This document shows, piece by piece, positions 1,411-29,364 of a DNA stretch of 41,058 nucleotides (the stretch's first letter is position 1; the number at the start of each line of letters is the position of its first letter). The DNA is from a virus. Lineage: Duplodnaviria; Caudoviricetes. The position numbers and the translations under genes are program-made. Under the pieces are notes generated by a model. The model did no database searches. It was not told where the DNA came from and worked only from the letters and a program-made list of their open reading frames with translations. The stretch is taken from IMG/VR virus record IMGVR_UViG_3300020413_000989, positions 1 through 41,058 of that record, one strand, 5' to 3'.

Positions 1411-1943
1411 AAGTAATAGATAATTTTTTACCAGCAGAAGTCTACACTGATTTGTGGAATCATCTGCAACAGTTGAAGACACCTTTGGAATGTCCAAGGG
1501 ACGAAGAGGATCATCAAGGTTTACAGAATTGCGATAGATTTGCCATAGAGGGCGAAGCAAAAACTCTGTTTATGACCGAACTGGTCAATCAGGATGTGTG
1601 CAGAATCAATTGGCTGGAACCCAAGTACGAAATGACATACCACAGGATGAAGGCACCATATTACAGTCATTTCCATTGCGATAGATTGAGCGACTGGCAC
1701 AGCGACGAGATAGATTATGTGGGCATATCGTTCTTTATGAACGACGACTGGAAATACAACGACGGTGGATTGTTTGCATGGAAACAGACTTGGGACAGCA
1801 ACAGAGGAGAGTTTGTGGAACCCATACAGAACAGATTGATAATAAATCCAATGGATTATCCACACGCAGTCACACAGATAACCAATCCGGATGTGATGAG
1901 GCACAGCATACAGATTTTTATTGCCAAGGAGTATGTGAAATGA
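1407..1943 (+). CDS. 2OG-Fe(II) oxygenase (prolyl-4-hydroxylase-like)
   Basis: N-terminal VIDNFLP, HxD (HCD), WxxxDGG, distal His (HAVT) and RxS (RHSIQIF). Confidence 0.85.
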   Translation: MKVIDNFLPAEVYTDLWNHLQQLKTPLECPRDEEDHQGLQNCDRFAIEGEAKTLFMTELVNQDVCRINWLEPKYEMTYHRMKAPYYSHFHCDRLSDWHSDEIDYVGISFFMNDDWKYNDGGLFAWKQTWDSNRGEFVEPIQNRLIINPMDYPHAVTQITNPDVMRHSIQIFIAKEYVK

Positions 1944-3004
1944 TCTACACAGAATATGATCCATTACAATCTGTAATAGTGGGAGACACATATGCTCCTG
2001 GAGATGTGGATCACTTGTTGACTGAAGGCAACATCACACAGTTTAACAAAATATTAGAAGACACCAAGCAGGATCTAGACAGTCTGGCAGACTTTCTCAA
2101 GCAGGGAAAAGTTGAAGTGCATCGTCCTCACATACACAATTATGACAGTGTGAAGATGCCTCAGTTTGATATCAAACTGCCAATAGCACCTGTGGTGCCA
2201 AGAGATGCACTGATGGTGATGGGCAACACAATCATACAGACATACACCAGTTACACAGACAGATACTTTGATGCTATCAGTTACTATCCTATATTTGAAA
2301 AAATGTTCAAGGAAGGATACCGTTGGATCAGTCAGCCAGCACCCATGCTACAGAATCTAAACACAGAGGATGATTGGTTTGTGAATGATAAAACCTACAA
2401 AGAAAAATTATGGGACAGAGTGTTGTGGCACACTGCCACAATGTACAAGGCAGGAGATGCCTTTATTGTTAATCAAGAAGGTCCCGGATCTATGACAGGA
2501 TTGGAATGGTGCAGACGTGAATTGAGTGACTACAAGTTTCACACAAATCAAGGCACACGCTTCAATGGATTTGGACACATTGACCACGGCTTTATAATGA
2601 TAGATGATGACACAGTGATACACGCAGGCATTGATTGGGTACCAGAGTGTCTACGCAACAAAAAATTAATAGACGTCAGTGACTGTTTGCCTGAATTAAA
2701 GATGGATAGATATGTGCAGGATTATGCAGAAGCCAAAAACAAAATGGATGTTGCATGGTTAGACAAGTACTTGGACAACTGGAGAGGTTACAGTCAAGAA
2801 GTTTGCTTTGATCTCAATGTGTTGGTGATAGACAGAAATAACATTGTGTTTGCTAGACACATACCCAAACTGTTTGCAAAACTGAAGTCCTTGCATATAG
2901 ACTGCCACGTAGTGGAACAGCGCCATTATTTGTTTTGGGATGGTGGTATACATTGTAGCACATTGGACGTGAAACGTTCAGGCGTCAAAAGAAAAATCAT
3001 ATAA
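1940..3004 (+). CDS. Amidinotransferase (glycine/inosamine-phosphate amidinotransferase family)
   Basis: Start re-assigned to ATG 1940 (MIYTEYDPLQSVIVGD), which has AAGGAG upstream and an ATGA overlap. Motifs PRD, GHID, DLNVLVID and GGIHCST (catalytic Cys). Confidence 0.9.
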   Translation: MIYTEYDPLQSVIVGDTYAPGDVDHLLTEGNITQFNKILEDTKQDLDSLADFLKQGKVEVHRPHIHNYDSVKMPQFDIKLPIAPVVPRDALMVMGNTIIQTYTSYTDRYFDAISYYPIFEKMFKEGYRWISQPAPMLQNLNTEDDWFVNDKTYKEKLWDRVLWHTATMYKAGDAFIVNQEGPGSMTGLEWCRRELSDYKFHTNQGTRFNGFGHIDHGFIMIDDDTVIHAGIDWVPECLRNKKLIDVSDCLPELKMDRYVQDYAEAKNKMDVAWLDKYLDNWRGYSQEVCFDLNVLVIDRNNIVFARHIPKLFAKLKSLHIDCHVVEQRHYLFWDGGIHCSTLDVKRSGVKRKII

Positions 3005-3737: not shown

Positions 3738-5369
3738 TCAGGTTTCTAACCACTGCTGGAATGAATGAAGTTGCACATCTGCACACTCCACATAGTCTGA
3801 ATTGTTATGATGTTTAACTTTGCCTCTACCTGATATGATATCACCATCTCTATGACTGAAAGGCTTTTTAACTGTGATGTCTATGTATTCTCCTGGACCT
3901 ATTCCAAGTGTTACAAATGTTACGTACTTGCCGTTTTTGCCTCTGAACACTCTACCATTAGCGACCACTCCTGCAAACTCTACATAATCTAAATACTGCG
4001 TTGCAACTTTACACTTAGGTATGAATCCTCTTCTCCACCAACCAGGTTCATTGTCTACACCAACTCTCTGTGCTTCTGTGTTGTATACCCAACGTCTGTA
4101 TGAACCTTCACAGTGTTTTAAACAAGCCTCCCAAAATTTTTGAGGATTGTGTGCTTTCTGATATGCTAGTGCCCAAATTAATCTTCCAAGATTTACTGCG
4201 TGTGCCCTACACAATCCAAATCCTGAAAGAGTCATCAGTGTATCTATTGCTTCTTGCTTCTTAGGATGATTGCCTAATTTTTCTACAAACTCTAAAATTT
4301 TTTCATCTTTCTTTTTTGCAAATGCTCTGCGATACATATCTGCTTCATACATATCAATACCTATAATTTCAGAAATAATTTCGATAGCATCATCTTCGAA
4401 CACAATACTATCTTGTACTCCGTCTTTTGTCCAGTCATTAAACATTGATGCTTTTTGTCTTCCTGTTAGTGCCACAGGTCTTATCATGGCTGTTGCAAAC
4501 ACACAATCATATACACTTTTAGGTTGTATTGCTCTAAACAGTCTACGCATAGCAGGTGACTCTCCTTGTGTAACTCCTAACACATCTCCTCTGCGTAGAA
4601 GATTGGCTGTTGCTTCATCTTCTTCAGGATAGTCTGTTAAATTTCTATCAGGATCTATTTCTAATAATTGACTTAATCCTCTATTAGCAAGTATGTCAAC
4701 TTTTAAATGTTCTAAGTCTTCTACTTCGTATTTGTCTAATAATATTTGATTGTCTTCACTGATTAAACTTTTAGGCAGTTGTCGATCAAACATTATTATA
4801 CCACCACAATGTTTTGATATGCAACGTTTTTTGCCTAATAGTTTTTGTTCAATACGTTTTGCTTCTTTAGGATCTATATCATAATCTTCATATTTAAAAT
4901 TACGTGGCAGGTTTCCTTTTACGCCTAAACGTTTTGCCGCTTCACGTTTTGCTGATTTAGGTTGATAAGTTACATAATTTGAAATACGTGCAGTCTTGCC
5001 GGGCCATTTTTTAAAGATACGTTCCATTACATCTTTTTGTCGCCAATGTTCAAAGTCTATATCTACATCTGGTAAATCATCACGCAGTGGATTTAAGAAA
5101 CGTGCAACAGGTATATTCCATTTAACTGGATCTACATCAGTTATTCCTAACAAGTAGCACACAAGAGATGATCCTGCTGAACCTCTTGTCATGTGTTTTA
5201 TGTCTTGTGTTATGTCTATGATATCGCAAATTTTTAAGAAGTATTCTGTGAATCTTTGTTTTAATATTAATTCAAATTCTTCTGCGAGTCTTTGTTGGTA
5301 CACTTCATCGTTGGGCATTTGCCTTTTAAAACGTTCAGTGAGCCTTTGTATATTTTCTAAATCTTTCAT
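3738..5369 (-). CDS. dnaE: Family C DNA polymerase (DnaE/Pol III alpha-like), lacking the PHP domain
   Basis: RGSAGSSLVCYLLGIT, RFLNPLRDDLPDVDIDF, KHCGG, KVDILA, QGESPAMR, IRP, GFGLCRAHA and a C-terminal OB-fold-like segment. Confidence 0.92.
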   Translation of the reverse strand: MKDLENIQRLTERFKRQMPNDEVYQQRLAEEFELILKQRFTEYFLKICDIIDITQDIKHMTRGSAGSSLVCYLLGITDVDPVKWNIPVARFLNPLRDDLPDVDIDFEHWRQKDVMERIFKKWPGKTARISNYVTYQPKSAKREAAKRLGVKGNLPRNFKYEDYDIDPKEAKRIEQKLLGKKRCISKHCGGIIMFDRQLPKSLISEDNQILLDKYEVEDLEHLKVDILANRGLSQLLEIDPDRNLTDYPEEDEATANLLRRGDVLGVTQGESPAMRRLFRAIQPKSVYDCVFATAMIRPVALTGRQKASMFNDWTKDGVQDSIVFEDDAIEIISEIIGIDMYEADMYRRAFAKKKDEKILEFVEKLGNHPKKQEAIDTLMTLSGFGLCRAHAVNLGRLIWALAYQKAHNPQKFWEACLKHCEGSYRRWVYNTEAQRVGVDNEPGWWRRGFIPKCKVATQYLDYVEFAGVVANGRVFRGKNGKYVTFVTLGIGPGEYIDITVKKPFSHRDGDIISGRGKVKHHNNSDYVECADVQLHSFQQWLET

Positions 5370-5419: not shown

Positions 5420-6268
5420 TTATGATTTTGGTAAAATGTTTAAGCCGTAATATGCCATGAAAGGTGCAAGGAATGTGCCATTACCTAGTTCTTCTGAACT
5501 CCATTGAATACTACTTAAACAATTAAAAACTTTTTGTCTTTCTAAATCTGAAGGATAATATAAATCATTTATTTTTGAAATATTGTCTACACTATAATCT
5601 TTTAGCACACCAGGGACTAAAGATATCACAGGCACTCCTTCTCTTAATGCTTCTGTTACAGCCATGGTGTGTAAACTAATTACGCAATAAATGTTGTCTA
5701 AAGAATCACAAAAACCTCGTGAACCTCTAGACTTCTTGTTTCCTTTTTTTCTTATCTTTATAGGTCTATTGGTATATTTCTTAACTTCAGTTTCTACTTC
5801 TGCTATCCATTCGTCAACAGACTTTTTAATTCCATAAAAATCCAATCCATTTTGGCTAGGAGCAACAATGTATACTTGTTCACCCTTTTGCCATTTTTTA
5901 ATTGGCATATTAAATTTATTAAATCTTGTGTTATCAAATCCTTGTTTAATTTTAGTAACTTGATTTTCGTTAAAACAAATCCGCCAAAATTTTGGTTTCC
6001 ACCAATTACAATAACCTTTTTCAACATTAATATAATCTATGCCTTTTGCTTCTAATTTTTGATGTATCCTTGGATCGTCATGCCCACCAACTCCACCGAG
6101 TATAACCAGATCATCCTTTTCAATATCAGTATCTGCACTTACAACCATAGGCAGATAAAATTTACGCGAAATATTTTTTGCAATCCATGTGGAAGTTTCT
6201 GTTGACGTTCCTGTGTCTAAATCTTTTGGAACAACTACTCTTGAATATGTTTTATTCATTTTCATCAA
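5420..6268 (-). CDS. Putative glycosyltransferase (KpsS/capsule-synthesis-like GT-B); true start probably 6259-6265
   Basis: C-terminal CVISLHTMAVTEALREGVPV...ER...LSSIQW..EEL..G is shared with three paralogs at 18.6-22.0 kb. Confidence 0.55.
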   Translation of the reverse strand: MMKMNKTYSRVVVPKDLDTGTSTETSTWIAKNISRKFYLPMVVSADTDIEKDDLVILGGVGGHDDPRIHQKLEAKGIDYINVEKGYCNWWKPKFWRICFNENQVTKIKQGFDNTRFNKFNMPIKKWQKGEQVYIVAPSQNGLDFYGIKKSVDEWIAEVETEVKKYTNRPIKIRKKGNKKSRGSRGFCDSLDNIYCVISLHTMAVTEALREGVPVISLVPGVLKDYSVDNISKINDLYYPSDLERQKVFNCLSSIQWSSEELGNGTFLAPFMAYYGLNILPKS

Positions 6269-7697
6269 GGTTCTTTAAGAAGTCCCTTAATTTAGTCTGA
6301 TCTGTGTTGTCAGTGTTTACTCTGCCTACTGTGTCACCTTTTCTTGGATCAGGTGGAGTAATTTCTTTTGGAGCAGATGCATCTTCAGTGATTGTGGAAG
6401 TTTGTTTTAATGAATTATAGATTGTGCTTTTACGTTTGTCAAACTCTTGATATTCTGCATCATCACCTAAGTCTCTAATACGCAAACTGTCTACATCAAA
6501 TTCTAAATCAATTTTCATACCAACACCACTAGAACTTCTTGTTTTCATTAATTGTATTTGATATCTGCCACGTTCTCTCATTGCTCTACTTGTGAATATA
6601 CCAAACACGTTGTCAGCAGTTTGTATTTTACTTAAACCACCTGCTATGTGCGAATGATCAAACTCTATTTCTTCTACTGCACCTCTGTTCAACTGTGATG
6701 CTGTTACAAATATTACATTCAATTCCATAGCCAAGTTTCTTAATTCTTCTGAAACAAATTTATCTTTTACAAATAAATCACTTGGACTTACTTTTTTATT
6801 CATTGGCATCATTAAATCTAGATAATCAACTAGCACAACATCTAGTTTTGTGCCTGTTTTAATTTCATATTCTTTAATATAACTTCTTAAATCATTTGTA
6901 GTTTTACCACTTGGCATATATTTTATTTGAAACTTACCTGACTTTTTACCAAGTAATTTAACTTTCATTTCTACACCATCTAAGTCTTTGAATATTTCTT
7001 TTGTTGGAACATCTGTCAACATAGAATCTACCCTCATACTTACAAGTGGTTCGCTTAATTCAAAAGTGATGTACGCAACATTCATTCCATTCAATACCCA
7101 GTTGCAACCTAAGTTTGCAAGGAACAAAGACTTACCTGCACCTGATCCTCCTGCAAAAATATTCAATTCACCTTTGTTGAATCCACCAAACAATCTTTTA
7201 TCTAGTGTTGCCCAACCTGTGCTGACTTGACCATTTTGATTTTTCAATCCCATTAATCTTGCTTTAGGATCTGCAAAGTAATCTGTTCCTATATCTTTGT
7301 GTAATCCAATCTGCACTGCCTTTTTGACCAAATCTTCAACTGGACCATATTCACCTTTTTCAAGCATATCAGCAGATTTTAATATTGCTCTTTCTAAACT
7401 TTTATGTCTAACAAAAGTTTCAAAGTCATTTAGTAACCAGTCGAAATGTTCTTCTGTAAGTTGTTCAGTATGTTTTAGATCCACATTGCAAGATTTATTA
7501 ACAATATCATACGTTGGCAACTGATTATAATCAGTCACATATTTGTTTATGAATTGTGCTGTGTCTTGAAGTTTTCTATCAAACAATGAATGATCAAATA
7601 TAGATTGGCAACGCACGAATGTTTCTGCGTTCTGTAACATCATTTCTAGATACAACTTTTGTATGTCATATCCATAATCTTTATTCTGTTTTGCCAT
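6252..7697 (-). CDS. Replicative DNA helicase (DnaB / T4 gp41-like)
   Basis: Walker A GGSGAGKS, VDYLDLM, TASQLNR and MKTRSS. Start re-assigned to ATG 7697 (MAKQNK), directly downstream of a consensus promoter. Confidence 0.95.
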   Translation of the reverse strand: MAKQNKDYGYDIQKLYLEMMLQNAETFVRCQSIFDHSLFDRKLQDTAQFINKYVTDYNQLPTYDIVNKSCNVDLKHTEQLTEEHFDWLLNDFETFVRHKSLERAILKSADMLEKGEYGPVEDLVKKAVQIGLHKDIGTDYFADPKARLMGLKNQNGQVSTGWATLDKRLFGGFNKGELNIFAGGSGAGKSLFLANLGCNWVLNGMNVAYITFELSEPLVSMRVDSMLTDVPTKEIFKDLDGVEMKVKLLGKKSGKFQIKYMPSGKTTNDLRSYIKEYEIKTGTKLDVVLVDYLDLMMPMNKKVSPSDLFVKDKFVSEELRNLAMELNVIFVTASQLNRGAVEEIEFDHSHIAGGLSKIQTADNVFGIFTSRAMRERGRYQIQLMKTRSSSGVGMKIDLEFDVDSLRIRDLGDDAEYQEFDKRKSTIYNSLKQTSTITEDASAPKEITPPDPRKGDTVGRVNTDNTDQTKLRDFLKNLDENE

Positions 7698-8691
7698 GTT
7701 CCTTATTATACCACATTTCGTTTGAATTGTCAATGTGCTTGTGATATTTGGCAAGTACAGCACCTATGCAACTACCAGGGTCGCCAGGATTTTTTGGAAC
7801 CCATATGTCATCCCAAACATTTTCTAATTTGCCTACTGCTGTTTTATTCAACGCACAACCACCTACCAAAATAATATTTGATGTGTTGATATTCATCTGT
7901 ATCCATGAACTTGCACACATTAATACTTGTTCAAAAATATGTTGTGTAGTTGCGGCAATGTCAGCCAAATCTTGTTCTGTGTTTAATTCTGGTCTCCACC
8001 AGTTGCAACCTCTATGTAAATTAACTCGCGTTTTGAAAGGCATTCTTGTATCAATTAATTCTTCCATAAACATTCTGTAATATTTTCTCCACTTACCTTT
8101 TTTAGCAAGTTGTTCGAATTTGTGTTCCTCTGCATTTGCTTTGAGACCAACCCTTTGAGTCATTGCTGAATAAAATAAACCAATGCTGTGCGGATAATTT
8201 TGTGTGTATTTCTTTTCTAGTTTTCCACCATGTCCATGCCATATTGTAAAAGTTTCAAACTCTCCTATGCTGTCTAAAACAACAACTGCGGCATCTCTAT
8301 ATGGAGAAGTGTAGTATCCATATGCGGCATGACTTTCATGATGATTAACATATTCTATTGGCACATGGTGAATGCCTGCTTTACCTAAAAATTTTTTAAT
8401 GTTATTTTCTTTCCACTTCCATCCTTGACCTGCAATAAGTTGGCGCATAGTTTTTTTGAAAGGTTTTTCATAGAAATATATTTTTGCAGGAAAGGCCCAT
8501 TTAGGATTTGATCTTACTTCTGCCATAAGTTTAGGACAAAGTGTAGGGTCTCCAGGTATACCGCTGAAGTCTTTAGACATTCCTGCCCATTTTAATTTTA
8601 AATTATAGTGATCTGTAAGTCCTGCTACTCTCCACTCCATCACGGCAAGACTGGCATCGTGATTGTTTCCTGTTACTCCCCAAACTATCAT
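7681..8691 (-). CDS. Carbamoyltransferase, N-terminal (Kae1-like) domain only (NodU/CmcH/TobZ family)
   Basis: NHDASLA, FYEKP, HHESHAAYGYY, VLDSIGE, SIGLFYSAMT, GGCALN and PGDPGSCIGA. The protein ends about 25 aa later with no C-terminal domain. Confidence 0.88.
   Translation of the reverse strand: MIVWGVTGNNHDASLAVMEWRVAGLTDHYNLKLKWAGMSKDFSGIPGDPTLCPKLMAEVRSNPKWAFPAKIYFYEKPFKKTMRQLIAGQGWKWKENNIKKFLGKAGIHHVPIEYVNHHESHAAYGYYTSPYRDAAVVVLDSIGEFETFTIWHGHGGKLEKKYTQNYPHSIGLFYSAMTQRVGLKANAEEHKFEQLAKKGKWRKYYRMFMEELIDTRMPFKTRVNLHRGCNWWRPELNTEQDLADIAATTQHIFEQVLMCASSWIQMNINTSNIILVGGCALNKTAVGKLENVWDDIWVPKNPGDPGSCIGAVLAKYHKHIDNSNEMWYNKEHGKTE
7705..7733 (-). promoter_or_regulatory. Consensus sigma70 promoter for the helicase
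   Basis: TTGACA-17 nt-TATAAT with a TG extended -10, 7 nt before the ATG. It lies inside the 3' end of the carbamoyltransferase gene. Confidence 0.85.
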
Positions 8692-8698
8692 TTTTCTC

Positions 8699-8833
8699 CT
8701 ATTTGTATATAAACGGATCTCTCTTTTGTAATTCTCTTATTTTTTTCTTGTATTTGATGTAATTAACAAGTTTTCTAATAGGAGAGGTTACAAAATAGTA
8801 AACCTTTTTTAATAATTCTTTTACGCGAACCAT
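8699..8833 (-). CDS. Small basic protein, 44 aa (MVRVKELLKK...RELQKRDPFIYK); not in the ORF track
   Basis: Translated by hand. It fills the primase-carbamoyltransferase gap and its stop runs into the AGGAG RBS of the next gene. Confidence 0.75.
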   Translation of the reverse strand: MVRVKELLKKVYYFVTSPIRKLVNYIKYKKKIRELQKRDPFIYK

Positions 8834-9825
8834 TTTTTCATCCTCAGTTTGATTTTTAGTTGTGACTCTTCAGCATTCTTCACTATTGTGTATAAAGTGT
8901 ACAGTCTACCATATTTACGCACGGCATCATTAACATCTTTGATATCTTGGCTCCAATCAGGCATACTTACACTCCAGCCTGCTTCAATACTGTCATGCAC
9001 TAATTTTTGACCTGCTTCATCTCTGTCAGGAACAACTATTACGTGTTTGCCTAAACTGTTCAACAATGCTGTTTGTTGTTCTTTGACTTCACTGCCTAGC
9101 AGTGCAACACCATCAATAGCAATAGCATCAATTGGCCCTTCAACAGCAACAACATATTTTCTGTCATCATTTTGTTCATCAATGTTAAACACATACCCTG
9201 GTTGTTGTTCTGATAGATACTTAACTTTGCTTTCAACTGTTTTTCTTGCTGTGTACCCTACAATTTTTTCTCTATAATAGAAAGGAATAATTAATCTGTC
9301 TTTAAAGCCTACTTCTGGACTCCAATAAAATTCATAGTCATTTAGAGTCATTTTTCTTTCCATGATATATGACAGCACCTTAAACAAGTTAGGATCCATA
9401 CCACTTGGTTCTAATTCTTTGTATGTTGCCCATTCATGTATAGGCTTGGACTTTGCTGGAAGTTCTTTTGTTTCAAACTTAGGTAAACTTATAATTGATT
9501 TGTATCCAACTGTATCAGTTTTTGTTTGCAGTGCCTGAAGTGCCAATTTTGTAATCACATCATCTGGAACATTTAGCCATCGCATAAACTTTTTCATTTT
9601 GTAAGAAATGTTTCTGCCTATACGCCAACTTGTTTTGAATCCACAGTTGAAACAATGATAACTTACACCTTCTTCTGCATTTGCAATCAATCCACCTCTT
9701 TGTCTTGTGTCAGGAGTTGTACCATTATGCTCACAACATGGAGCATTAAAAGCCAACCAGCCACTTGGTGTTTGTTTCCGTTTTGCAGGCAAGTAAATTT
9801 GTAATGCATCAAAGACAATGTTCAT
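8821..9825 (-). CDS. DNA primase (T4 gp61/DnaG-like)
   Basis: Zn-binding region (PCCEH...HCFNCG), TOPRIM motifs VEGPIDA and PDRDEAG, and KDVNDA. Confidence 0.92.
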   Translation of the reverse strand: MNIVFDALQIYLPAKRKQTPSGWLAFNAPCCEHNGTTPDTRQRGGLIANAEEGVSYHCFNCGFKTSWRIGRNISYKMKKFMRWLNVPDDVITKLALQALQTKTDTVGYKSIISLPKFETKELPAKSKPIHEWATYKELEPSGMDPNLFKVLSYIMERKMTLNDYEFYWSPEVGFKDRLIIPFYYREKIVGYTARKTVESKVKYLSEQQPGYVFNIDEQNDDRKYVVAVEGPIDAIAIDGVALLGSEVKEQQTALLNSLGKHVIVVPDRDEAGQKLVHDSIEAGWSVSMPDWSQDIKDVNDAVRKYGRLYTLYTIVKNAEESQLKIKLRMKKWFA

Positions 9826-10704: not shown

Positions 10705-11070
10705 ATGCTGTTAGACGACATAGAAAAGAACTTTCCATTTATATCCGTAGTAGAATACGGAGGACAGGAGTATGTGGGAGTTATAAACAATCAGGACAAC
10801 GCAATTACCAGTATGTACATATACACAGACATACATTCTAAACTAAAAGAAGCATTTCTTGAACTGGGTAACACATGGTGGCATGAGTCCAATAGAATGA
10901 TTCCGATTGGTATATTTTTGAGGCAGGAAATGGAAAAATTTAGAAATGTGTTGATGATTATGAATACAAAAGATGTATCTGTTAAATTAGGTCCAGTAAC
11001 AAGCCTTGCAAATTTAGCCATGAAACGCAGTAAACGTAAGTCGGTTCAATTAGTACGTAAGCCTAAGTAA
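10705..11070 (+). CDS. Hypothetical phage protein (only credible plus-strand gene after 3 kb)
   Basis: Fits exactly in the gap between minus-strand genes. Natural composition with WWHESNRMIPI and a basic tail; ATAAATA on the plus strand at 10643-10649. Confidence 0.75.
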   Translation: MLLDDIEKNFPFISVVEYGGQEYVGVINNQDNAITSMYIYTDIHSKLKEAFLELGNTWWHESNRMIPIGIFLRQEMEKFRNVLMIMNTKDVSVKLGPVTSLANLAMKRSKRKSVQLVRKPK

Positions 11071-11385
11071 TCAATCAAATAAAAGTTTTGCTAGACGCTT
11101 ATTGCCTTTTTTATCAAGGTAATTTTTTACTCTTTTAACTTTCCAATCTTCGTATGGAAAGACATATGTTGGGTGATCTGTTTTGTCTTTACCCCATCTA
11201 ATTTTATTCCAAACTCTTTCGTGTCCGTAATACAAAAACATTTTTGTTATTACTTCTATACCTGCTATGGCTCCAGCCATACTTATTGTTCCGGTGATAA
11301 ACCACGAAATAAGAAACGTATCACTTGTTGCTAGGATACGCCATGATAGTGTTTTTGCTAAACTTCTTCTTGCTTTACTTTTCAT
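11071..11385 (-). CDS. DUF2061-like small membrane protein
   Basis: RSLAKTLSWR...FITG...YYGHERVW..I.WG signature with two hydrophobic segments. Confidence 0.85.
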   Translation of the reverse strand: MKSKARRSLAKTLSWRILATSDTFLISWFITGTISMAGAIAGIEVITKMFLYYGHERVWNKIRWGKDKTDHPTYVFPYEDWKVKRVKNYLDKKGNKRLAKLLFD

Positions 11386-11941
11386 TTTTCAATTGCTCAC
11401 AAATTAAATTCATATGAACAACTACTGCAACAGCATAGGACGTTGCGTGGGACTTTTTAAAAAAATATTTGTCATCAGATGGTTTCACCCAAACTTCTTG
11501 CATAATTTTATTCCAAGTTTCATTTAACAAATACCTTTTGCTAGGTCTTATAATTGCCAACACTGCCGCTAGTTGTTCAATGCTTTTTGGTTTCAACTTT
11601 CTTAATATTTCTGAATGACCATTTAAATGAAACACTTTGTCGCTAAAGTCTTTGGCTTCTAGCAACTCCCACATAGGTTGCTTGTTCATTAATTGTTTAA
11701 GATGATCATCATCTTTAATATCTTTGTAGATGCTTACGTTCAAGCAATCTATTTTAAAATAATTTCTATCTTCAGCAGTTTCATAATCTATTGTTGCCAT
11801 ATTTGTTGCTGGATCATGCGGAACTTCTGTGAAGTAAACACCTGTGTTGTGTTTCTTATCTGTATCTAATTTTGCTATCCTATGTTTTAATTTGTCTAAC
11901 AAAATTGTTCTATCTGCAAAGTCTATGTCTACATCAGGCAT
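11375..11941 (-). CDS. Miniature DnaE-like protein (palm/partial fingers only)
   Basis: Begins MPDVDIDFADR, followed by KHNTGVY, YFKIDCL, LAAVLAIIRP and FFKKSHATSYA, all in DnaE order. Confidence 0.85.
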   Translation of the reverse strand: MPDVDIDFADRTILLDKLKHRIAKLDTDKKHNTGVYFTEVPHDPATNMATIDYETAEDRNYFKIDCLNVSIYKDIKDDDHLKQLMNKQPMWELLEAKDFSDKVFHLNGHSEILRKLKPKSIEQLAAVLAIIRPSKRYLLNETWNKIMQEVWVKPSDDKYFFKKSHATSYAVAVVVHMNLICEQLKNEK

Positions 11942-12063
11942 TATATTGTTCCTTGTAAAAAATTTAAAAGCACTGCAAGTAGATATATAAATCCACCAAT
12001 ACTTACAATACCAAGTAATATTTTTTTAGTAAAAAGTTTTCTTACGTAATACATTTCAAGCAT
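11941..12063 (-). CDS. Small single-pass membrane protein, 40 aa (MLEMYYVRKLFTKKILLGIVSIGGFIYLLAVLLNFLQGTI); not in the ORF track
   Basis: Translated by hand. It overlaps the rpiB stop and has a TAATG junction with the mini-DnaE start. Confidence 0.65.
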   Translation of the reverse strand: MLEMYYVRKLFTKKILLGIVSIGGFIYLLAVLLNFLQGTI

Positions 12064-12499
12064 CTAATTTTTTTACCCTTCTTGTGTGTCTACCTTTTAA
12101 AAATTTAGTTTTAAAAAATGCCTCTATCATATATTTTGCTGTTTCAAAATCTACGTAGTCTGCACCAATACATAATACATTCATATCGTTATGTTGTCTA
12201 GCCTGTTCCACATCAAATATATCAAAACACACTACCGCTCTTGCACCTTTGAATCTATTTGCCTGTATTGCCATACCAAAACCACTGCCACAAAATAAAA
12301 TTACCCTATCATCTTTATCTAAACCTCCGCAGGCTTTTTTGGCTATGTCGTTATAATCTGTTCTCTTATTTTCATATATGCCTATGTCATGGAACGTAAC
12401 AATATCGTCCATGCACTCGTCAATAGGACATATCCATTTGGAAACTTTATCCTTTAGTTCCATACCTCTGTGATCAGCACCTATTGTTAAATCTATCAT
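12056..12499 (-). CDS. rpiB: Ribose-5-phosphate isomerase B (RpiB/LacAB family)
   Basis: IGADHRG, CGSGFGMAIQANR..GARA, ARQHNDMNVLCIG and F..GRH.RRV. Confidence 0.93.
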   Translation of the reverse strand: MIDLTIGADHRGMELKDKVSKWICPIDECMDDIVTFHDIGIYENKRTDYNDIAKKACGGLDKDDRVILFCGSGFGMAIQANRFKGARAVVCFDIFDVEQARQHNDMNVLCIGADYVDFETAKYMIEAFFKTKFLKGRHTRRVKKLDA

Positions 12500-13149
12500 A
12501 ATTTTAACTTACTGTGACCTCCACCAACTTCACCTTCTACCCATGTGTTAAAGGACAATGTGTATCTTAAATCAGTTGGACTCGCATTAATTTCAACACT
12601 GTGGTTTAAAAAACTAGGAAACAACATCAAGTCCCATTTCTTCGGACAAACTGCCATCCTTGTTTGATGATACAAATAACTTCTTTTGTTTGTGAAATCA
12701 AATTGTTCTTTGTGATCTAGTCTTACAGTATCAGTAAAAATATTTGTATGACTCTTATCTTTGTGAAATACTATGTTAGATGTGTCTTTACAATCTGTTA
12801 AAAACAAAACACCAGAGATTAAACTATTACTGTGATAATGCTCCTGTATGTATTGATTTTGTTCGTATTTGTTACACCAACTTGTTGTTAAAACAAATTT
12901 ATGTTTTTCATGCACATCTAAATATCCGTGCATGAATTCACTTACTTGCTGTAAAATTTCTGTTTTTAACGGCAATAAGTTATCTTTATCTAACACATAA
13001 TCATCTTTTGAAATGTATGATACTTTGTGTGAACGTAATTCATAATCTAATTTTTCTTTGATAAATTTTTCACTTTCTTCATATGGTTTAATTTGCGTTT
13101 GACACAAAGGTATACCAAATAAAGGTACAACATTATTTTCTTTTATCAT
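12496..13149 (-). CDS. Putative 2OG-Fe(II) oxygenase (TIGR02466-like phage family)
   Basis: SWCN, HYHSNSLISGVLF, LMLFPSFLNHSV and RYTLSFN. Confidence 0.85.
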   Translation of the reverse strand: MIKENNVVPLFGIPLCQTQIKPYEESEKFIKEKLDYELRSHKVSYISKDDYVLDKDNLLPLKTEILQQVSEFMHGYLDVHEKHKFVLTTSWCNKYEQNQYIQEHYHSNSLISGVLFLTDCKDTSNIVFHKDKSHTNIFTDTVRLDHKEQFDFTNKRSYLYHQTRMAVCPKKWDLMLFPSFLNHSVEINASPTDLRYTLSFNTWVEGEVGGGHSKLKL

Positions 13150-13829
13150 ATTCTTGCCTCTTTTGTTATTTCTTTTACCATTTCAATATCTGCTGGTAAT
13201 CGCTTAAATCTTAATGCCCAATGATTAGGATCCATTATAGGATACACAATTTGTAGTTGTTCATTGTTAAATCTATTCATCATTTGTTTTCCGCTCTTAC
13301 AATTTAATATTAACCAAGGACTTATTTTGCCATCTTTAATATCCATTACTGCTCTATTTAGACTTGCATAACGAAAGTAATCACTCCAAGTGGCTTCTTT
13401 TTCATCTCCCCAATCCATCATAGTTTTGATTGATCTTTCCATTGCTGTTTCAACCTTTTCACGTAAGATTAAATCTATTGCATACTTTTGATACAATTCT
13501 TCTCTACACCAGTGGTCTAATTTTACTCCGCTTGTGACAACGTAATCAATGTATTTGCTAGGATACAACGGCTTAACATTGCTGATAAAACTTCCAAATT
13601 TTACAAATGCTGTATAATATGGACTTTTGCAAAACTCTTCATATGTTTTGGTTTTAGATGCTTTTTGACACAGTTCATAAAATCTTACAAAAGTTTGATA
13701 ACCTAATTGTACTCTTCGTTCGTCTTTTTGTAAGAACCTTCTTTTTTGTTCGCACATATGAACTGATAAAGTTTTTTCTTTAGTAAATTTAGCACTACAA
13801 TATGGACAAGTGTATAATTTTTCTATCAT
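13146..13829 (-). CDS. Hypothetical protein with N-terminal zinc finger
   Basis: YTCPYCSAKFTKEKTLSVHMC (C2H2/C2HC-like pattern). Confidence 0.7.
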   Translation of the reverse strand: MIEKLYTCPYCSAKFTKEKTLSVHMCEQKRRFLQKDERRVQLGYQTFVRFYELCQKASKTKTYEEFCKSPYYTAFVKFGSFISNVKPLYPSKYIDYVVTSGVKLDHWCREELYQKYAIDLILREKVETAMERSIKTMMDWGDEKEATWSDYFRYASLNRAVMDIKDGKISPWLILNCKSGKQMMNRFNNEQLQIVYPIMDPNHWALRFKRLPADIEMVKEITKEARI

Positions 13830-14305
13830 AATTGCTTTTTAATCTGCTCCGGAGTCATTCCAAAGTCTTTTGCTAATTGTTTTATTTCTTTTGCGTCATT
13901 TATAGCAACAAGTAATTTTATTTCATCTGGCTTCATTGTAGGATATAGTTTTTCTAAAAATTTTGTTGTTTTGGCATTGCCGCCGGACTCTTTAAATTTA
14001 TATCCTATCCATTCATGATACCTAATATTTTTCTTAGAACTTGCAGTCATGCAAAGTAGATACCATAAAAGTTTTTTGTGTTTTGTTAGTGTAAAGAAGT
14101 GCTTATTATAATATTGATTTGTTTTCAGTATTTGTAATTCTTTGTCCTGTTGACTACCTTTTATAGCACTTGCATATCTATTCAACAAGTAGAAACTAAC
14201 TTGCTTTCTTTCATCATCTGATAAATCTTCCCAAACGTTCTTTGCGTTCATGTCAATTGCCGCAAGTACATCTTTCAAAGGTAATTTGTTAATCTTCGTA
14301 GCCAT
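13826..14305 (-). CDS. Possible clamp-loader small subunit (T4 gp62-like)
   Basis: Size and pattern (L.AID...FYLLNRYAS...NQYYN...LLWYLL...EWIG) resemble gp62 of T4-like phages; replication context. Confidence 0.45.
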   Translation of the reverse strand: MATKINKLPLKDVLAAIDMNAKNVWEDLSDDERKQVSFYLLNRYASAIKGSQQDKELQILKTNQYYNKHFFTLTKHKKLLWYLLCMTASSKKNIRYHEWIGYKFKESGGNAKTTKFLEKLYPTMKPDEIKLLVAINDAKEIKQLAKDFGMTPEQIKKQL

Positions 14306-15871: not shown

Positions 15872-17326
15872 TTAATTCCAATCTAACTTTTCTAATGTAA
15901 AAGGATAATTTGCTTCTTTGTAAAATTTTTTCCTATGTGTCAAATGTCTTTTAGCAAACTTACAACTTGACGTGATATCCCAAATTTGTACAAAGTCTTT
16001 GTCTTTTGCTTTACGAATTCCACGTCCTATTGACTGTATTACTCTTACAAATGACTTTCCTGGCTCTATTAATACTAAATTAAATATTCTTGGAATATTA
16101 ATACCTACTGATGCTACACCATATGTTGCAATTATAACTTTGTCATCCGAACTGCTTATTTCATCATACTGCTCTTTTCTTTCTTCTAATTTTGTTTCAC
16201 CCTGTATAAAAACACTACCGTCTATCAATTTTTGTAATTCTGTTCCTGCTGTTAGTCTGTCAATTAATACAAGTGTATTGCCCGAGACTCTTATTTTTTC
16301 AATTAGTTTTGCAATATATTCTAAACGTTTTTGATTTGTTGTAAGATATTTCAGTTCTTCTTGATAATTTTTATAAACTGGAGTGTCAAGCATTTGTACA
16401 ACATTTACATGACATTTAGATAATACTCCTTTGTCTTGCAATTCTTTTGCACTTATTTGATTAACCACGGGCCCGATACTTGCCAATATGCTTTGAAATT
16501 CAAATTGTTCTTTAGGCACTGTGCCGGTTAGTCCCCATCTGATAGGAGCATTTTTTAAATGATGTGTAAGTAATTTTTTCAACACATCTGCTTTTGCTTG
16601 GTGAACTTCGTCAACGATTATTGCTTTAACACCATCTAAAAATTCTGTTAGTGTTAGTACTGAGTCTCCTGATTTTGCTCTCTTGTCTAAAATATTTAGA
16701 CTTTGCCACGTGCAAATGGTGTGTGTTCTGTTCAACTCTTTTCTATCACCAAAGTAAACACCTACGTCTAGTCCAACAGTTTTATAATCTTCTTCTGTTT
16801 GTGTGACAAGTGACTTATTTGGAACTATTACAACTGTTCTTCCTATGCTTTCACATAAACTTGATAAACAAGCAGTAATAATAGTTTTACCAGCACCAGT
16901 GGCAACCTCTTGTAAACTTTGTGGTGTACGTAAAAAATTATTTACAACTTCTACTTGATAATCTCTTAATTCAATTGCTTGACCTTCGCATTGATGTCCT
17001 TTGGGCCATTGTTTATTAGCAAAGTAATCTTTGTCTATTAAATTAAAATTTAAATCTGTTTTCTGTCTTTTGTCATCAATTGAATCTACTTCAATACCTT
17101 CTTCATGAATTATTTGTAAAATTTTATCTAAATGATTAACATAACCATTACCACCTAAACCAAAGAAACCAACTTTACCATCCCATCTACCTAACTTATA
17201 TTGAGGCAAATATCTAGCATACGGAACTTGCCATTTCATTTTATTTGATATTTTTCTTCTTACATCAACAGGAAGTCCATCAATTTTTACATTGACTTCA
17301 TCATTTATTATAATTTTACATCTCAT
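15872..17326 (-). CDS. uvsW: Superfamily 2 DNA helicase (UvsW-like)
   Basis: LRDYQ, ATGAGKT, DEVH, GLTGT, GINIP and QSIGRGIR. Confidence 0.9.
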   Translation of the reverse strand: MRCKIIINDEVNVKIDGLPVDVRRKISNKMKWQVPYARYLPQYKLGRWDGKVGFFGLGGNGYVNHLDKILQIIHEEGIEVDSIDDKRQKTDLNFNLIDKDYFANKQWPKGHQCEGQAIELRDYQVEVVNNFLRTPQSLQEVATGAGKTIITACLSSLCESIGRTVVIVPNKSLVTQTEEDYKTVGLDVGVYFGDRKELNRTHTICTWQSLNILDKRAKSGDSVLTLTEFLDGVKAIIVDEVHQAKADVLKKLLTHHLKNAPIRWGLTGTVPKEQFEFQSILASIGPVVNQISAKELQDKGVLSKCHVNVVQMLDTPVYKNYQEELKYLTTNQKRLEYIAKLIEKIRVSGNTLVLIDRLTAGTELQKLIDGSVFIQGETKLEERKEQYDEISSSDDKVIIATYGVASVGINIPRIFNLVLIEPGKSFVRVIQSIGRGIRKAKDKDFVQIWDITSSCKFAKRHLTHRKKFYKEANYPFTLEKLDWN

Positions 17327-18606: not shown

Positions 18607-18635
18607 AGTATAACGGATTTTGGTTAAAAAGTCAA
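18607..18635 (-). promoter_or_regulatory. sigma70-type promoter for the UvsW-to-mini-DnaE operon
   Basis: TTGACT-17 nt-TATACT, 6 nt before ATG 18600. Confidence 0.8.
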
Positions 18636-19460
18636 TCTAGAAAAGGGCAATCCTTGGGCAATTTCGTCAACGGTCCACTCTGTATTTGCATAATTGTTCA
18701 GCCATTGCTGTCTTTCCGGCATCAAAGGTTCATTGATGGTGCTGAAATCTTTATTTGCTACATCATAAGCAATACTCTGCTCACTAACATAAGCAGGTAT
18801 CCCATTTAATACAGCATGAATTCCAGGATTGCTACTGTGACTGACTACTGCCCATGCTTTTGTAAAATTTAAATCGAAATCATCATATGTATTTGTAATC
18901 TGTTTAGGCACTTCGTAACTCACATTGTCTAACACAGGTAAATTTAACAAAGGACATCTAGGGTGCGGTCTTACTATTATTTTTCTATCAGTATATTTTC
19001 TAATTTCTGTAACAGTGTTTCTTACATATTGATCTAATGCAGGTTGATCTTTCCATTGTTCACTCTTGTCATGTTGTAAACAAATTAGAATGTGTTCACC
19101 GTTTTGTCTCCAAGGTTTTACATTTATGTTAAATTGTTTTGCACGTGAATCATTATTATCTGTGGTTCCGAAATTTGCTTTTCGATTGATGCCATTTAAT
19201 CCAACTTTCCATGTGGTGTTTCTTTTTATGCCACCAACTTCAATCACTAAAACATTTTTATTTTGTTTTCTAAAATGTTCCCAAATGTCTTTATTGCGAG
19301 CCATTCTACCATGCCATAGCAATGACCATATCACTGGCACATCACAATCCATATTGTTTTCATCAACAGTATGTCCTAAAGTTTTAAGTCCTTTTGATAC
19401 GGCTTCCCATATAGGAGGACTGACTAAAGCACTATTTTTTGTAAACAAACTAAATTTCAT
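18624..19460 (-). CDS. Putative glycosyltransferase (KpsS-like paralog)
   Basis: IIVRPHPR, AVVSHSSNPGIHAVLNGIP and ERQQWL..YA.TEW..DEI..G. Confidence 0.6.
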   Translation of the reverse strand: MKFSLFTKNSALVSPPIWEAVSKGLKTLGHTVDENNMDCDVPVIWSLLWHGRMARNKDIWEHFRKQNKNVLVIEVGGIKRNTTWKVGLNGINRKANFGTTDNNDSRAKQFNINVKPWRQNGEHILICLQHDKSEQWKDQPALDQYVRNTVTEIRKYTDRKIIVRPHPRCPLLNLPVLDNVSYEVPKQITNTYDDFDLNFTKAWAVVSHSSNPGIHAVLNGIPAYVSEQSIAYDVANKDFSTINEPLMPERQQWLNNYANTEWTVDEIAQGLPFSRLTF

Positions 19461-20286
19461 TCCAATATTTTTCTGTTCGTTGTTGCATTAAATCTTTTCT
19501 AGCACTCTTGCGTTGTGTTTTTCTTGATCCTTTCATGTGATCAAAGTATTTTCCCAGTTCGGAATTGATTAAAGGATGACCACCACCGCCTGTCTTTGCA
19601 GTTTTAACATAGATATTTTTAGAATAATCATAATATGATGTATCTAATTTTGCAAGTGTTTTTAAAATATAACCAAACACAAAACTATCATGCCATTCAT
19701 TTAAAGTAAAGATGCCTTTGTCAGCGTCTTCGTACATCTTTTCAAACTGTTGCATAAATTTTTTACAAGTATTATTTGTTCTATTCAATCCATAAAAACC
19801 GCACTCGGGCCAGGTTTGTGTGCCACGTCCTCTACCTACAAAAGTGATCCATTTATCATCTGGTAGTAAATCTTCAAATTGTTTATATGATATAGGACTA
19901 TGCACAAATGTATCTGCGTCTATCCATACTACCCATTTTGAATCAGCAGACTTATAAGTTTCAAACACCGCATAAGTTTTATTTGCAAATCTTATTGCGT
20001 CCCATTTAAATTCTTTATGGTGATCTCTTGGTCGCTTTTCTGGGAAAGGACATTTACCATTTGCTTTGGGAACATTACGCCATTTGTTTTTAAACTCTAC
20101 TAATTGTTTAAGATTTGTTTGAGGCAATATTGTAATTTGTGTTTGATCAGGATTTACAGGCTCACAATCTTCTGCATACACAATAAGTTTTACTCCTTTG
20201 TCTACATTCTTAGCAAAACTGTTAAGAAATCTTTGTCCATACAAATCTAAACCTTCTTTGTGAAATGTTGTTACTGCTGTGATCAT
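19450..20286 (-). CDS. GT-A fold glycosyltransferase-like protein
   Basis: WIDADT (DxD), ECGFYG, WHDS and DHMKG. Start re-assigned to ATG 20286 (ATGA overlap). Confidence 0.7.
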   Translation of the reverse strand: MITAVTTFHKEGLDLYGQRFLNSFAKNVDKGVKLIVYAEDCEPVNPDQTQITILPQTNLKQLVEFKNKWRNVPKANGKCPFPEKRPRDHHKEFKWDAIRFANKTYAVFETYKSADSKWVVWIDADTFVHSPISYKQFEDLLPDDKWITFVGRGRGTQTWPECGFYGLNRTNNTCKKFMQQFEKMYEDADKGIFTLNEWHDSFVFGYILKTLAKLDTSYYDYSKNIYVKTAKTGGGGHPLINSELGKYFDHMKGSRKTQRKSARKDLMQQRTEKYWNEI

Positions 20287-21233
20287 TTTACATATTTCCT
20301 CATATGTTTCCAAGCCAATCCTTGTTTTACTTCATCTAAAGTCCAATGTGTTTGTGCAATTCTTCTTATCCAAAGTTCTCTATCATATGCTTGAGGATTG
20401 TCTAATTCTTCAAATTTTTTCATACAAACATCTTTTGCTTGAGCACGTTCAGGGTCAGTAACGAGTGTAGGAATCCCTTCGATTACACTCGCCACTGTTG
20501 GACTGCTGTTATGCCCAATCACTGCTTGAGCATGAACCAGTTCAGTTTTTAAATCTTTAGCACCGCTTATTTCAACGTTTGAAAAATCTCTATTGCCTGT
20601 GTTTATCCAATTACGAAGTGTGGCAATATGGGCACCTGTATTTTTGTCACCTGGATGAAATCTTACTCTAATTAATTTTTTTGGCAAAACTTTTCTTATA
20701 GATTGCACAACCATTAGTAACCAGTCTAATACTTTGGTGCCTCGCATACTCCAGCCGCCGTCTCTTTGACAACATATTAGAACGTATGCTCCTCCTCCTA
20801 GTCTCCATGGTTGCAAATCAATTTTAAGATTTTTCTTTATCTCTTCCCAACGCATTGGATCTGGTTTATCCCAGCAATATTCTGCTGTGTTAGGAAATAT
20901 TCCATCGTATCCATAACGTAAATAATTCTTTGATTGTGTTGGATCTGCAAATAAAAATAAACTACTGTCAACAATTACGGTCCTTTTTCCTTTTTGTTGC
21001 TGTCTATCATAGACTGCTTTACGTAAAATTAAATGTCTATGTTTTTGTGAATCTTGATGTGTAAAGCCTTGAATAACAGCCACGTCGGCATCTACAATAG
21101 ACCAAGTATTAAGCACTAATCCTTTATCACCAACTGCATTTACACCTTCAATAAAGTTTTTAATTATTAAAGGTTTTTGTGGCTTTTTGTTTCCAGGAGG
21201 AATACATTTCATATATGATACAACTTTTATCAT
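20283..21233 (-). CDS. Putative glycosyltransferase (KpsS-like paralog)
   Basis: IRVRFHPGD, HNSSPTVASVIEGIP and RELW..IAQTHW..DEV..G. Start re-assigned to ATG 21233. Confidence 0.6.
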   Translation of the reverse strand: MIKVVSYMKCIPPGNKKPQKPLIIKNFIEGVNAVGDKGLVLNTWSIVDADVAVIQGFTHQDSQKHRHLILRKAVYDRQQQKGKRTVIVDSSLFLFADPTQSKNYLRYGYDGIFPNTAEYCWDKPDPMRWEEIKKNLKIDLQPWRLGGGAYVLICCQRDGGWSMRGTKVLDWLLMVVQSIRKVLPKKLIRVRFHPGDKNTGAHIATLRNWINTGNRDFSNVEISGAKDLKTELVHAQAVIGHNSSPTVASVIEGIPTLVTDPERAQAKDVCMKKFEELDNPQAYDRELWIRRIAQTHWTLDEVKQGLAWKHMRKYVK

Positions 21234-22027: not shown

Positions 22028-22028
22028 A

Positions 22029-23775: not shown

Positions 23776-23812
23776 ATAGGATTCCTTTGTTTAAAAATAT
23801 TTATTGGGCGAA

Positions 23813-29327: not shown

Positions 29328-29364
29328 ATTTTGAATATTTATTGGAAAGTATTTTTGGTGTGCT

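What the first reader, a model, noticed from the sequence alone, without database searches (positions are those of the whole stretch)
11375..11941. 188-aa 'palm-only' DnaE that keeps all three catalytic aspartates
Seen: the ORF starts exactly at the catalytic motif (MPDVDIDF) and keeps HxxG, KIDCL (third Asp), IRP and FKKSHA-Y in DnaE order, with the sequence between motifs deleted. It is translationally coupled on both sides. Known: DnaE is about 1100 aa, and the RGS/Arg residues that bind the triphosphate lie upstream of PDxDxD; these are absent here, as are the PHP, clamp-binding and OB domains. Inference: clean motif-preserving shrinkage looks like selection rather than decay. It could be a minimal nucleotidyltransferase or primer-handling enzyme, or one subunit of a split polymerase. 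It shares an operon with UvsW and a gp62-like protein.
Basis: partly seen in the sequence, partly recalled or inferred. Interest (0 to 1): 0.85.

Follow-up and report, generated by a model that had tools for sequence, protein, structure and literature searches.

The report
Catalytic half of split phage mini-polymerase
This small jumbo-phage gene encodes the aspartate-bearing half of a two-gene, stripped-down relative of the bacterial replicative DNA polymerase, a family described from sequence in 2021; a distant partner gene is predicted to complete its active site, and a few related proteins appear to carry both halves in one 375-residue chain, which would make this apparently untested enzyme easy to assay.

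Summary
The 188-aa ORF is real, under purifying selection (median dN/dS 0.14) and keeps the DnaE aspartates. It is not 'palm-only' and probably does not work alone. It is the C-terminal unit (PHROG 11778) of the split minimal Pol III alpha of group 2.2 jumbo phages described by Iyer et al. 2021. The missing GRGS half is a separate ~170-aa gene (PHROG 11127), 15-224 kb away in five cultured phages that also carry PolB; it is not in this 11%-complete contig. A predicted complex with a relative's N-unit scored 0.94 against a best control of 0.00, possibly from likeness to solved DnaE. New here: three protein clusters (375-376 aa) fuse both halves in DnaE order and nest inside a split clade, so the fusion looks secondary; I did not see their DNA. 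Most dNTP-pocket residues, including the anti-rNTP histidine, survive. Thumb helices, index finger, clamp site and proofreading are lost, so a distributive short-patch DNA polymerase is likely. No assay was found. The 543-aa DnaE nearby is an accessory gene, not the partner. This scan found the family on other DNA at least five times before. New member of a known kind.

The parts
11375..11941 (-). C-terminal unit of split minimal Pol III alpha, 188 aa (E. coli DnaE ~399-784 with thumb helices and index finger deleted)
11921..11935 (-). D3-x-D5-x-D7 (= D401, D403, D405)
   Evidence: invariant in 96 of 96 aligned
11849..11851 (-). H31 (= H511, thumb beta-2, primer contact)
   Evidence: (95 of 96)
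11747..11755 (-). K63-x-D65 (= K553, D555)
   Evidence: 96 of 96
11543..11548 (-). R132-P133 (= R639, P640, templating-base contact)
   Evidence: 96 of 96; role
11447..11467 (-). Y159..H165 helix-loop-helix (= Y754, F756, N757 replaced by K, K758, H760 steric gate)
11950..11954 (-). Shine-Dalgarno-like AAGGA, 8 nt before the ATG
   Evidence: sequence only
13146..13829 (-). 227-aa C2H2 zinc-finger protein of unknown function (PHROG 11058); most constant neighbour, not shown to be a partner
   Evidence: 65 of 65 loci with enough upstream DNA
13826..14305 (-). 159-aa conserved neighbour, possibly gp62-like clamp-loader small subunit (lead only)
   Evidence: 50 of 65 loci
15872..17326 (-). UvsW-like helicase of the conserved block
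   Evidence: 53 of 65 loci
6252..9825 (-). primase (8821-9825) and DnaB/gp41-like helicase (6252-7763) downstream in the conserved block, with a carbamoyltransferase-like gene between them
   Evidence: each in 53 of 73 loci
3738..5369 (-). separate 543-aa PHP-less DnaE with its own RGS and aspartate motifs; accessory, not the partner

Best explanation
The ORF encodes the C-terminal, aspartate-bearing half of the split minimal DNA polymerase III alpha of group 2.2 jumbo phages, which is predicted to pair with a ~170-aa N-terminal half from a distant gene and likely acts as a slow, distributive, template-directed DNA polymerase beside the phage's PolB. Shown: family identity, conservation, selection, co-occurrence of the two genes in relatives, and fused proteins in the protein collection. 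Predicted: the heterodimer, in which the N-unit (residues ~70-168 = E. coli 271-393) lays its R-G-S loop against the D3/D5/D7 strand and rebuilds the nucleotidyltransferase palm. The cut falls at the border between the rigid palm part (271-393) and the mobile part that carries D401/D403. Inferred: D3, D5 and D65 bind two Mg2+; K63 and H31 hold the primer; R132-P133 sit at the templating base; Y159 stacks on the incoming base; H165 excludes rNTPs; gained lysines K162 and K135 stand in for lost R390, R396, R709, R710, K714 and K715. With no thumb helices, clamp-binding region, OB or PHP it would add a few dNTPs per binding event without proofreading. Most likely job (about 0.35 within this reading): extending primase primers or invading 3' ends before hand-off to PolB; otherwise gap filling or lesion bypass.
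For: Family: PHROG 11778, E 3.6e-59; 96 phage records incl. Atu_ph07 (45.9%), PA5oct and Paride (50.5%), same gene order; Iyer et al. describe this split form. Partner: 5 of 5 cultured phages have a separate 169-182-aa GRGSS protein ending just before the PD motif position and PolB; a fused query hits 187 places in 96 records, none in one piece; 4 of 29 N-bearing IMG/VR contigs carry the C-unit, including 2 of 2 complete ones; 4 of 5 C-bearing long contigs carry the N-unit; PolB in 5 of 5. Fusion: P0261, P0287, P0288 (375-376 aa, 78-81% identical; five distinct sequences from ENA and Logan) align to both units (hhalign 99.9% and 100%) and to PF07733 across the junction. Complex: score 0.94, best control 0.00, runs agree in at least 98% of contacts, partner pLDDT at least 93; the mark was reached by 116 of 157 solved and 2 of 215 mismatched pairs; a pass may come from memory of solved DnaE. 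Fold: pLDDT 95.6; the top 7 VIA hits are DnaE/PolC, Z 9.9-6.5, 183-185 residues aligned, rmsd 3.2-4.1 A, next Z 4.2. Selection: median dN/dS 0.14, max 0.43, in 653 of 1,891 pairs. The residues whose loss kills E. coli Pol III (R362, K553, K510/H511) are kept.
Against: No activity data exist in anything I read. This phage's own N-unit and PolB were not seen (contig 11% complete; none in 48 related fragments), and the complex used a non-cognate N-unit from G075, whose C-unit is 59% identical. R390 is replaced by an acid (E 61, D 3 of 64), and R396, R709, R710, K714, K715 have no counterpart; K543 is mostly Y (80 of 96) and R560 is lost; R390A alone lowers efficiency 27-fold in E. coli. The two genes were never near each other: 0 of 188 C-unit loci hold an N-unit in up to 10 kb of flank. 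The DNA of the fusions was not found. The biological role rests on gene neighbourhood only.
Confidence: 0.62

Rival explanations
1. The same N+C heterodimer is an active nucleotidyltransferase but not a templated DNA polymerase: it tails DNA or RNA ends, modifies a protein, or makes a small nucleotide product.
For: The thumb helices and index finger that grip duplex DNA and close on the dNTP are deleted; K543, R560, R390 are lost; PolB is already present.
Against: Template- and primer-contact residues R639/P640, H511, K553 and the Y754/H760 selection loop are kept in nearly all members; the gene stays in a replication block.
Confidence: 0.2
2. The pair is catalytically idle and acts as a DNA-binding scaffold or as a decoy for host replisome parts or antiphage sensors.
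For: Several triphosphate-binding arginines are lost; no activity is on record.
Against: All metal ligands and K553 are invariant down to 30% identity (96 of 96); the domains that bind host clamp, tau and epsilon are the ones deleted.
Confidence: 0.08
3. The 188-aa protein is a stand-alone minimal enzyme, or pairs with an operon neighbour (227-aa zinc-finger protein, 159-aa protein, 543-aa DnaE) rather than the distant N-unit.
For: It folds confidently alone in AlphaFold2; the zinc-finger gene is beside it in 65 of 65 loci.
Against: It lacks the GS motif; the N-unit co-occurs and is fused to it in three clusters; the 543-aa DnaE has a full active site of its own and is missing from 7 of 17 close loci and from 5 of 5 cultured phages. 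The zinc-finger protein could still be a third subunit; not tested.
Confidence: 0.07
4. It is a decaying DnaE fragment.
For: It is about one sixth of DnaE's length.
Against: dN/dS 0.01 against the nearest relatives (21-24 synonymous to 1 non-synonymous change), median 0.14 overall; constant length in thousands of clusters.
Confidence: 0.01

Closest known systems
Split minimal DNA polymerase III alpha of group 2.2 jumbo phages, C-terminal Mg2+/template-binding unit (Iyer et al. 2021, PMC7824862; PHROG 11778, partner PHROG 11127)
   Same: Size, motifs, gene order (UvsW, 168-aa, 159-aa, zinc finger, C-unit, reverse ORF, virion protein, primase, helicase), 36-51% identity to the genes of Atu_ph07, PA5oct, Paride, 121Q; distant N-unit and PolB in relatives.
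   Different: Uncultured lineage. This genome also carries a second, 543-aa DnaE, whereas the paper says these phages hold no other Pol III domains. The passages I read mention no fused form; I found 375-aa fusions. The supplement could not be read and may list them.
Bacterial DnaE1 (E. coli Pol III alpha, 1160 aa; PDB 2hnh, 5lew, 2hpi) and PolC (3f2b)
   Same: Fold over 183-185 residues; D401/D403/D555, K553, H511, R639/P640, Y754, F756, H760 equivalents.
   Different: No PHP, no 271-393 palm part in this chain, no thumb helices, index finger, clamp-binding region, OB or C-terminal domain; N757 is K; R390 and R709/R710 equivalents are lost.
Split-intein DnaE of cyanobacteria (recalled) and the larger intein-free two-gene phage DnaEs in this scan's notes (e1-5377904, e1-5466535, e1-5645093; unchecked)
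   Same: DnaE encoded as two genes.
   Different: No intein family matched either unit. The larger split DnaEs are reported as near full-size replicases with duplicated junctions; this one is a ~360-aa core beside PolB.

Membership tests
Group 2.2 split minimal Pol III alpha, C-unit | Stand-alone small gene with the Mg-binding aspartates and template-binding subdomain | tested here: met
Group 2.2 split minimal Pol III alpha, C-unit | Orthology with the gene in named group 2.2 phages | tested here: met
   45.9% to Atu_ph07 (named as group 2.2), 50.5% to Paride, same neighbours
Group 2.2 split minimal Pol III alpha, C-unit | Separate, distant N-terminal NTP-binding gene in the same genome | tested here: inconclusive
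   Not in this 11%-complete contig; present in 5 of 5 cultured relatives and 4 of 5 long contigs
Group 2.2 split minimal Pol III alpha, C-unit | Family B polymerase in the same genome | tested here: inconclusive
   No PolB among 54 window proteins scanned; present in 10 of 10 relatives searched
Group 2.2 split minimal Pol III alpha, C-unit | The two units reconstitute an active enzyme | not testable with these tools
   Modelled only; fusions; no assay found
Full-length DnaE replicase (family C) | PHP, GS motif, thumb, clamp-binding and OB regions in one chain | tested here: not met
   188 aa; far below NCBIfam cut-offs; alignments
Full-length DnaE replicase (family C) | Catalytic D-x-D ... K-x-D triad and the HLH loop with the histidine gate | tested here: met
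Stand-alone Pol-beta-like nucleotidyltransferase | GS/GG motif in the same chain ahead of DxD | tested here: not met
   The chain starts two residues before the first Asp; open frames in 78 related loci are at most 238 aa
Stand-alone Pol-beta-like nucleotidyltransferase | Whole Pol-beta palm fold in the single chain | tested here: inconclusive
   Best matches are family C; a Pol X chain scores Z 3.3 on helical residues 96-186 only
Split-intein DnaE | Intein fragments at the junction | tested here: not met
   No intein family in Pfam scans of the C-unit, an N-unit or the fusions; the units end and start at DnaE residues ~393 and ~399

The most novel reading that the evidence does not exclude
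The N+C pair is a working family-C DNA polymerase of about 360 residues, a third of E. coli DnaE, with a rewired triphosphate site (K135/K162 replacing the index-finger arginines), and one phage lineage has re-fused it into a natural 375-aa single chain that is active on its own: a ready-made minimal Pol III core for biochemistry and structure.
Probability: 0.5. Interest if true: 0.65.

Novelty: new member of a known kind. Interest (0 to 1): 0.36.

Why it matters
The gene itself is one of thousands of members of a family described in 2021. The open question is what this two-gene miniature Pol III does beside PolB in a whole group of jumbo phages; I found no test of it. Two results make the question easier to test. 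The natural 375-aa fusions are independent evidence that the halves work together and give single-chain constructs. The residue map says which Pol III functions should remain (dNTP selection, templating) and which should not (processivity, proofreading). Because the fusion nests inside a split clade, it is not a surviving ancestor; it neither supports nor refutes the proposal that the minimal module is ancient.

Tried and rejected
543-aa DnaE as partner: rejected (own RGS and aspartates, only short local similarity; in 10 of 17 close loci with enough downstream DNA; in 1 of 5 long contigs). Search for this phage's own N-unit: none in the window or in 48 related fragments of at most 26% completeness; a pattern scan gave 59 contigs, the longest 92 kb. 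Longer forms by word search: 2 of 407 candidates, P0121 (joined to a UvsW-like C-terminal part) and P0122 (unrelated N-terminal part), both singletons on 2-3 kb contigs and probably chimeric; this search missed the true fusions. DNA of the fusions: not found in viral, metagenome or genome contigs, so the fusions rest on protein records. AlphaFold2 of the fusion with three sequences failed (pLDDT 38.7) and says nothing. A mixed alignment of fusion, N- and C-units was misaligned and not used. Foldseek gave no match at E <= 0.001, though ranks 1-15 were all Pol III/PolC. Expression: pieces 90-99% alike occur in contigs of 4 of 4 seawater or marine RNA libraries laid, which does not show transcription. 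Zinc-finger neighbour: no named family. Invariance of GRGS in alignment A4 is by construction (loci were found with that pattern); the independent count is 12 of 12 (five cultured phages, four HMM-found contigs, three fusions). Literature searches returned no experimental study of the family and no mention of a fusion; the library lacks most subscription journals.

Full report
Observation. The ORF is at 11375-11941 on the minus strand, 188 aa, starting two residues before the first catalytic aspartate. Profile alignments to E. coli DnaE place D3/D5/D7 on D401/D403/D405, H31 on H511, K63/D65 on K553/D555, R132/P133 on R639/P640 and Y159-H165 on Y754-H760. The stop of a 40-aa ORF overlaps its start and a DUF2061 gene overlaps its end, but these flanks are variable: RpiB was found in 6 of 65 and DUF2061 in 12 of 73 related loci. 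'Palm-only' is wrong. The AlphaFold2 model (pLDDT 95.6) aligns over 183-185 residues to DnaE/PolC residues ~400-784 (top 7 of 48,161 chains, Z 9.9-6.5, rmsd 3.2-4.1 A; next Z 4.2). It holds the catalytic strands, the thumb beta-hairpin and a reduced fingers domain, and it lacks the first part of the palm.

Setting. The window is a 41-kb linear virus record, 11% complete, with T4-like terminase, gp32, UvsX, UvsY, UvsW-like helicase, primase and DnaB-like helicase. The block UvsW, 168-aa, 159-aa, 227-aa zinc finger, this gene, reverse 121-aa ORF, virion protein, primase, helicase recurs in PA5oct, Atu_ph07, Phosso and (without a detected 159-aa match) 121Q; in XacN1 no neighbour was detected. 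Among 154 loci examined, the zinc-finger gene was found in 65 of 65 with at least 7.5 kb upstream, UvsW in 53 of 65, primase and helicase in 53 of 73 with at least 6.5 kb downstream (tblastn misses in distant loci are not absences).

Family and selection. The protein matches PHROG 11778 end to end (E 3.6e-59). 7,976 of 7,999 scored candidates of 103-329 aa passed E 0.001, as did 429 representatives at 50% clustering and 96 of 50,697 phage records. In 78 of 80 IMG/VR loci an ORF of 175 (cut) to 207 aa was recovered, with open frames of at most 238 aa (one locus was cut at the start, one missed my pattern). With one truncated sequence dropped, 62 distinct coding sequences gave median dN/dS 0.14 (IQR 0.08-0.27, max 0.43) over the 653 of 1,891 pairs with dS 0.05-1.5; the nearest relatives show 21-24 synonymous against 1 non-synonymous change. 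D3, D5, D7, K63, D65, R132 and P133 are invariant in 96 of 96 sequences down to 30% identity; in 380 distinct aligned sequences D3 was 365 of 365 non-gap, D5 366 of 366, D65 376 of 377, H165 355 of 356 (some of those loci were fetched with motif patterns). Decay is excluded.

It is known. Iyer et al. 2021 (PMC7824862; passages read; supplement unreadable) describe a minimal Pol III alpha in group 2.2 jumbo phages, split into an N-terminal NTP-binding and a C-terminal Mg2+- and template-binding protein on distant genes, beside PolB, and suggest a role in strand synthesis or repair. They name Atu_ph07 in that group; Paride is placed there too (PMC10761892, passages). Our protein is 45.9% and 50.5% identical to their genes. 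This scan noted the same family on other DNA several times; I had reached the reading before looking.

The partner. Five of five cultured phages have one PF07733 hit elsewhere, 15-224 kb away, and PolB. The hits are 169-182-aa proteins (PHROG 11127) that carry GRGSS and end at the equivalent of E. coli N393. In 79 complete of 80 viral loci the protein ends 33-35 residues after the start of GRGS. Residues ~70-168 align to E. coli ~271-393; the first ~70 are unassigned. A cryo-EM preprint (10.64898/2026.06.29.735100; passages and section 7) the part of the palm that stays rigid while the D401/D403 part moves, so the cut lies at a natural hinge (inference). Four of 29 N-bearing IMG/VR contigs also hold the C-unit, including both complete ones; the 25 misses are at most 44% complete. 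Four of 5 long C-bearing contigs hold the N-unit. PolB was in 5 of 5. The window has no N-unit, as expected for a fragment; no N-unit lay within the flanks of 188 of 188 C-unit loci. The window's protein folded with the N-unit of G075 (non-cognate; its own C-unit is 59% identical) scored 0.94 against a best control of 0.00, with runs agreeing in at least 98% of contacts and partner pLDDT at least 93. The mark was reached by 116 of 157 solved and 2 of 215 mismatched pairs. The GVGRGSS stretch touches residues 6-8 and the N-unit's last helix touches K163/S164. Since DnaE is solved, the pass may reflect likeness and does not show binding.

Natural fusions. P0261 (375 aa) reads N-unit, a short linker, then C-unit. 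Two more clusters, P0287 and P0288 (376 aa, 81% and 78% identical), are fused alike: five distinct sequences on ten contigs from ENA and Logan assemblies, the longest 33 kb. They match both unit profiles (99.9% and 100%), and PF07733 runs across the junction. Ten residues separate the N-unit's usual last residue from the first aspartate, against seven in E. coli. The linker has diverged in frame and holds no Gln or Trp, which argues against a recoded stop (inference). Against the phage collection a fusion hits 187 places in 96 records and never in one piece; 39 of the 40 rows shown list two places. In trees, the C halves form a 100/99 group inside a nine-row group (100/99) and a 26-row group (100/100) whose other members are stand-alone C-units, and the N halves are sister to the N-unit of G082, whose C-unit is in the same nine-row group (midpoint-drawn, bootstrap of the C tree not fully settled, no test_one_clade run). 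The simplest reading is a recent re-fusion. That clade includes contigs titled human gut metagenome. I could not find the fusions' DNA. My paper searches and a word search of this scan's notes showed no mention of them; the unread supplement may.

Mechanism. The preprint lists the dNTP pocket as R362/G363/S364, D401/D403, Y754/F756/N757/H760, with R390, R709, K714, K715 nearby and R639/P640 at the templating base; R362A and K553A abolish activity, R390A costs 27-fold, and H760 is the gate against rNTPs; K510A-H511A is inactive. In the pair, R-G-S is kept (12 of 12 units not found by that pattern), Y754 is Y in 73 of 96, F756 F or Y in 91, H760 H in 95, H511 H in 95. N757 is K or R in 95 and a new K135 is in 89. 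R390 is E or D in 64 of 64, R396 falls in the cut, the index finger with R709/R710/K714/K715 is deleted, K543 is mostly Y and R560 is lost. I infer an active but slow and distributive dNTP-using enzyme with no proofreading or clamp site. The C gene sits between recombination and primase-helicase genes; in PA5oct, 121Q and Atu_ph07 the N gene lies just before a chaperonin and an RFC-like clamp-loader gene (the RFC label is my reading of the sequence). Primer or D-loop extension before hand-off to PolB is my first choice, gap filling or lesion bypass the second. None of this is shown.

The 543-aa DnaE at 3738-5369 has its own RGS and aspartate motifs, is present in 10 of 17 close loci with at least 9 kb downstream, in 1 of 5 long contigs and in none of five cultured phages. 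It is an accessory third polymerase, not the partner.

Verdict. The fusions and the residue map add a practical route to a first assay. Interest 0.36. Other papers seen: PMC12926913 (passages; no mention of this family in them), PMC11895373 (one passage; annotation only); the rest as search listings.

Noticed in passing
proteins P0261, P0287, P0288, P0302, P0303: Natural 375-376-aa single-chain fusions of the N- and C-units, nested in a split clade; DNA not seen.
   Followed up: yes
window 3738-5369 (-): 543-aa DnaE without PHP, with full catalytic motifs; patchy among relatives, 62% identical copy in complete genome G060 that also has PolB and both mini-units, so three polymerases in one phage. 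Best NCBIfam match is the error-prone DnaE2 model, far below cut-off; best phage record 36%.
   Followed up: partly
window 13146-13829 (-): 227-aa C2H2 zinc-finger protein, the only neighbour found in 65 of 65 loci, even the most distant; no named family. Candidate third subunit or loader.
   Followed up: partly
window 13826-14305 (-): 159-aa protein with a weak link to clamp-loader small subunits (PF16790 in about 13% of members of some Atlas clusters); an RFC-like large subunit gene lies near the N-unit gene in relatives.
   Followed up: partly
window 11941-13149 and 11071-11385 (-): Variable inserts around the gene: 40-aa membrane-like ORF, RpiB, 2OG-Fe(II) oxygenase, DUF2061; an insertion hotspot inside a conserved replication block.
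   Followed up: partly
window 18624-29393 (-): Long run of glycosyltransferase, methyltransferase, epimerase and cupin genes, typical of surface or virion glycan modification clusters.
   Followed up: no
window 316-3004 (+): Aminotransferase class III, 2OG-Fe(II) oxygenase and an amidinotransferase-like ORF (my reading of the sequence; PHROG 25854 unknown) on the opposite strand with higher GC (about 0.41 against 0.33); possible small-molecule pathway.
   Followed up: no
window 7681-8691 (-): Carbamoyltransferase N-terminal domain alone (336 aa) between primase and helicase; found in 18 of 73 related loci.
   Followed up: no
window 10705-11070 (+): 121-aa ORF on the opposite strand (PHROG 11637) that follows the C-unit gene in 54 of 73 loci; function unknown.
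   Followed up: no
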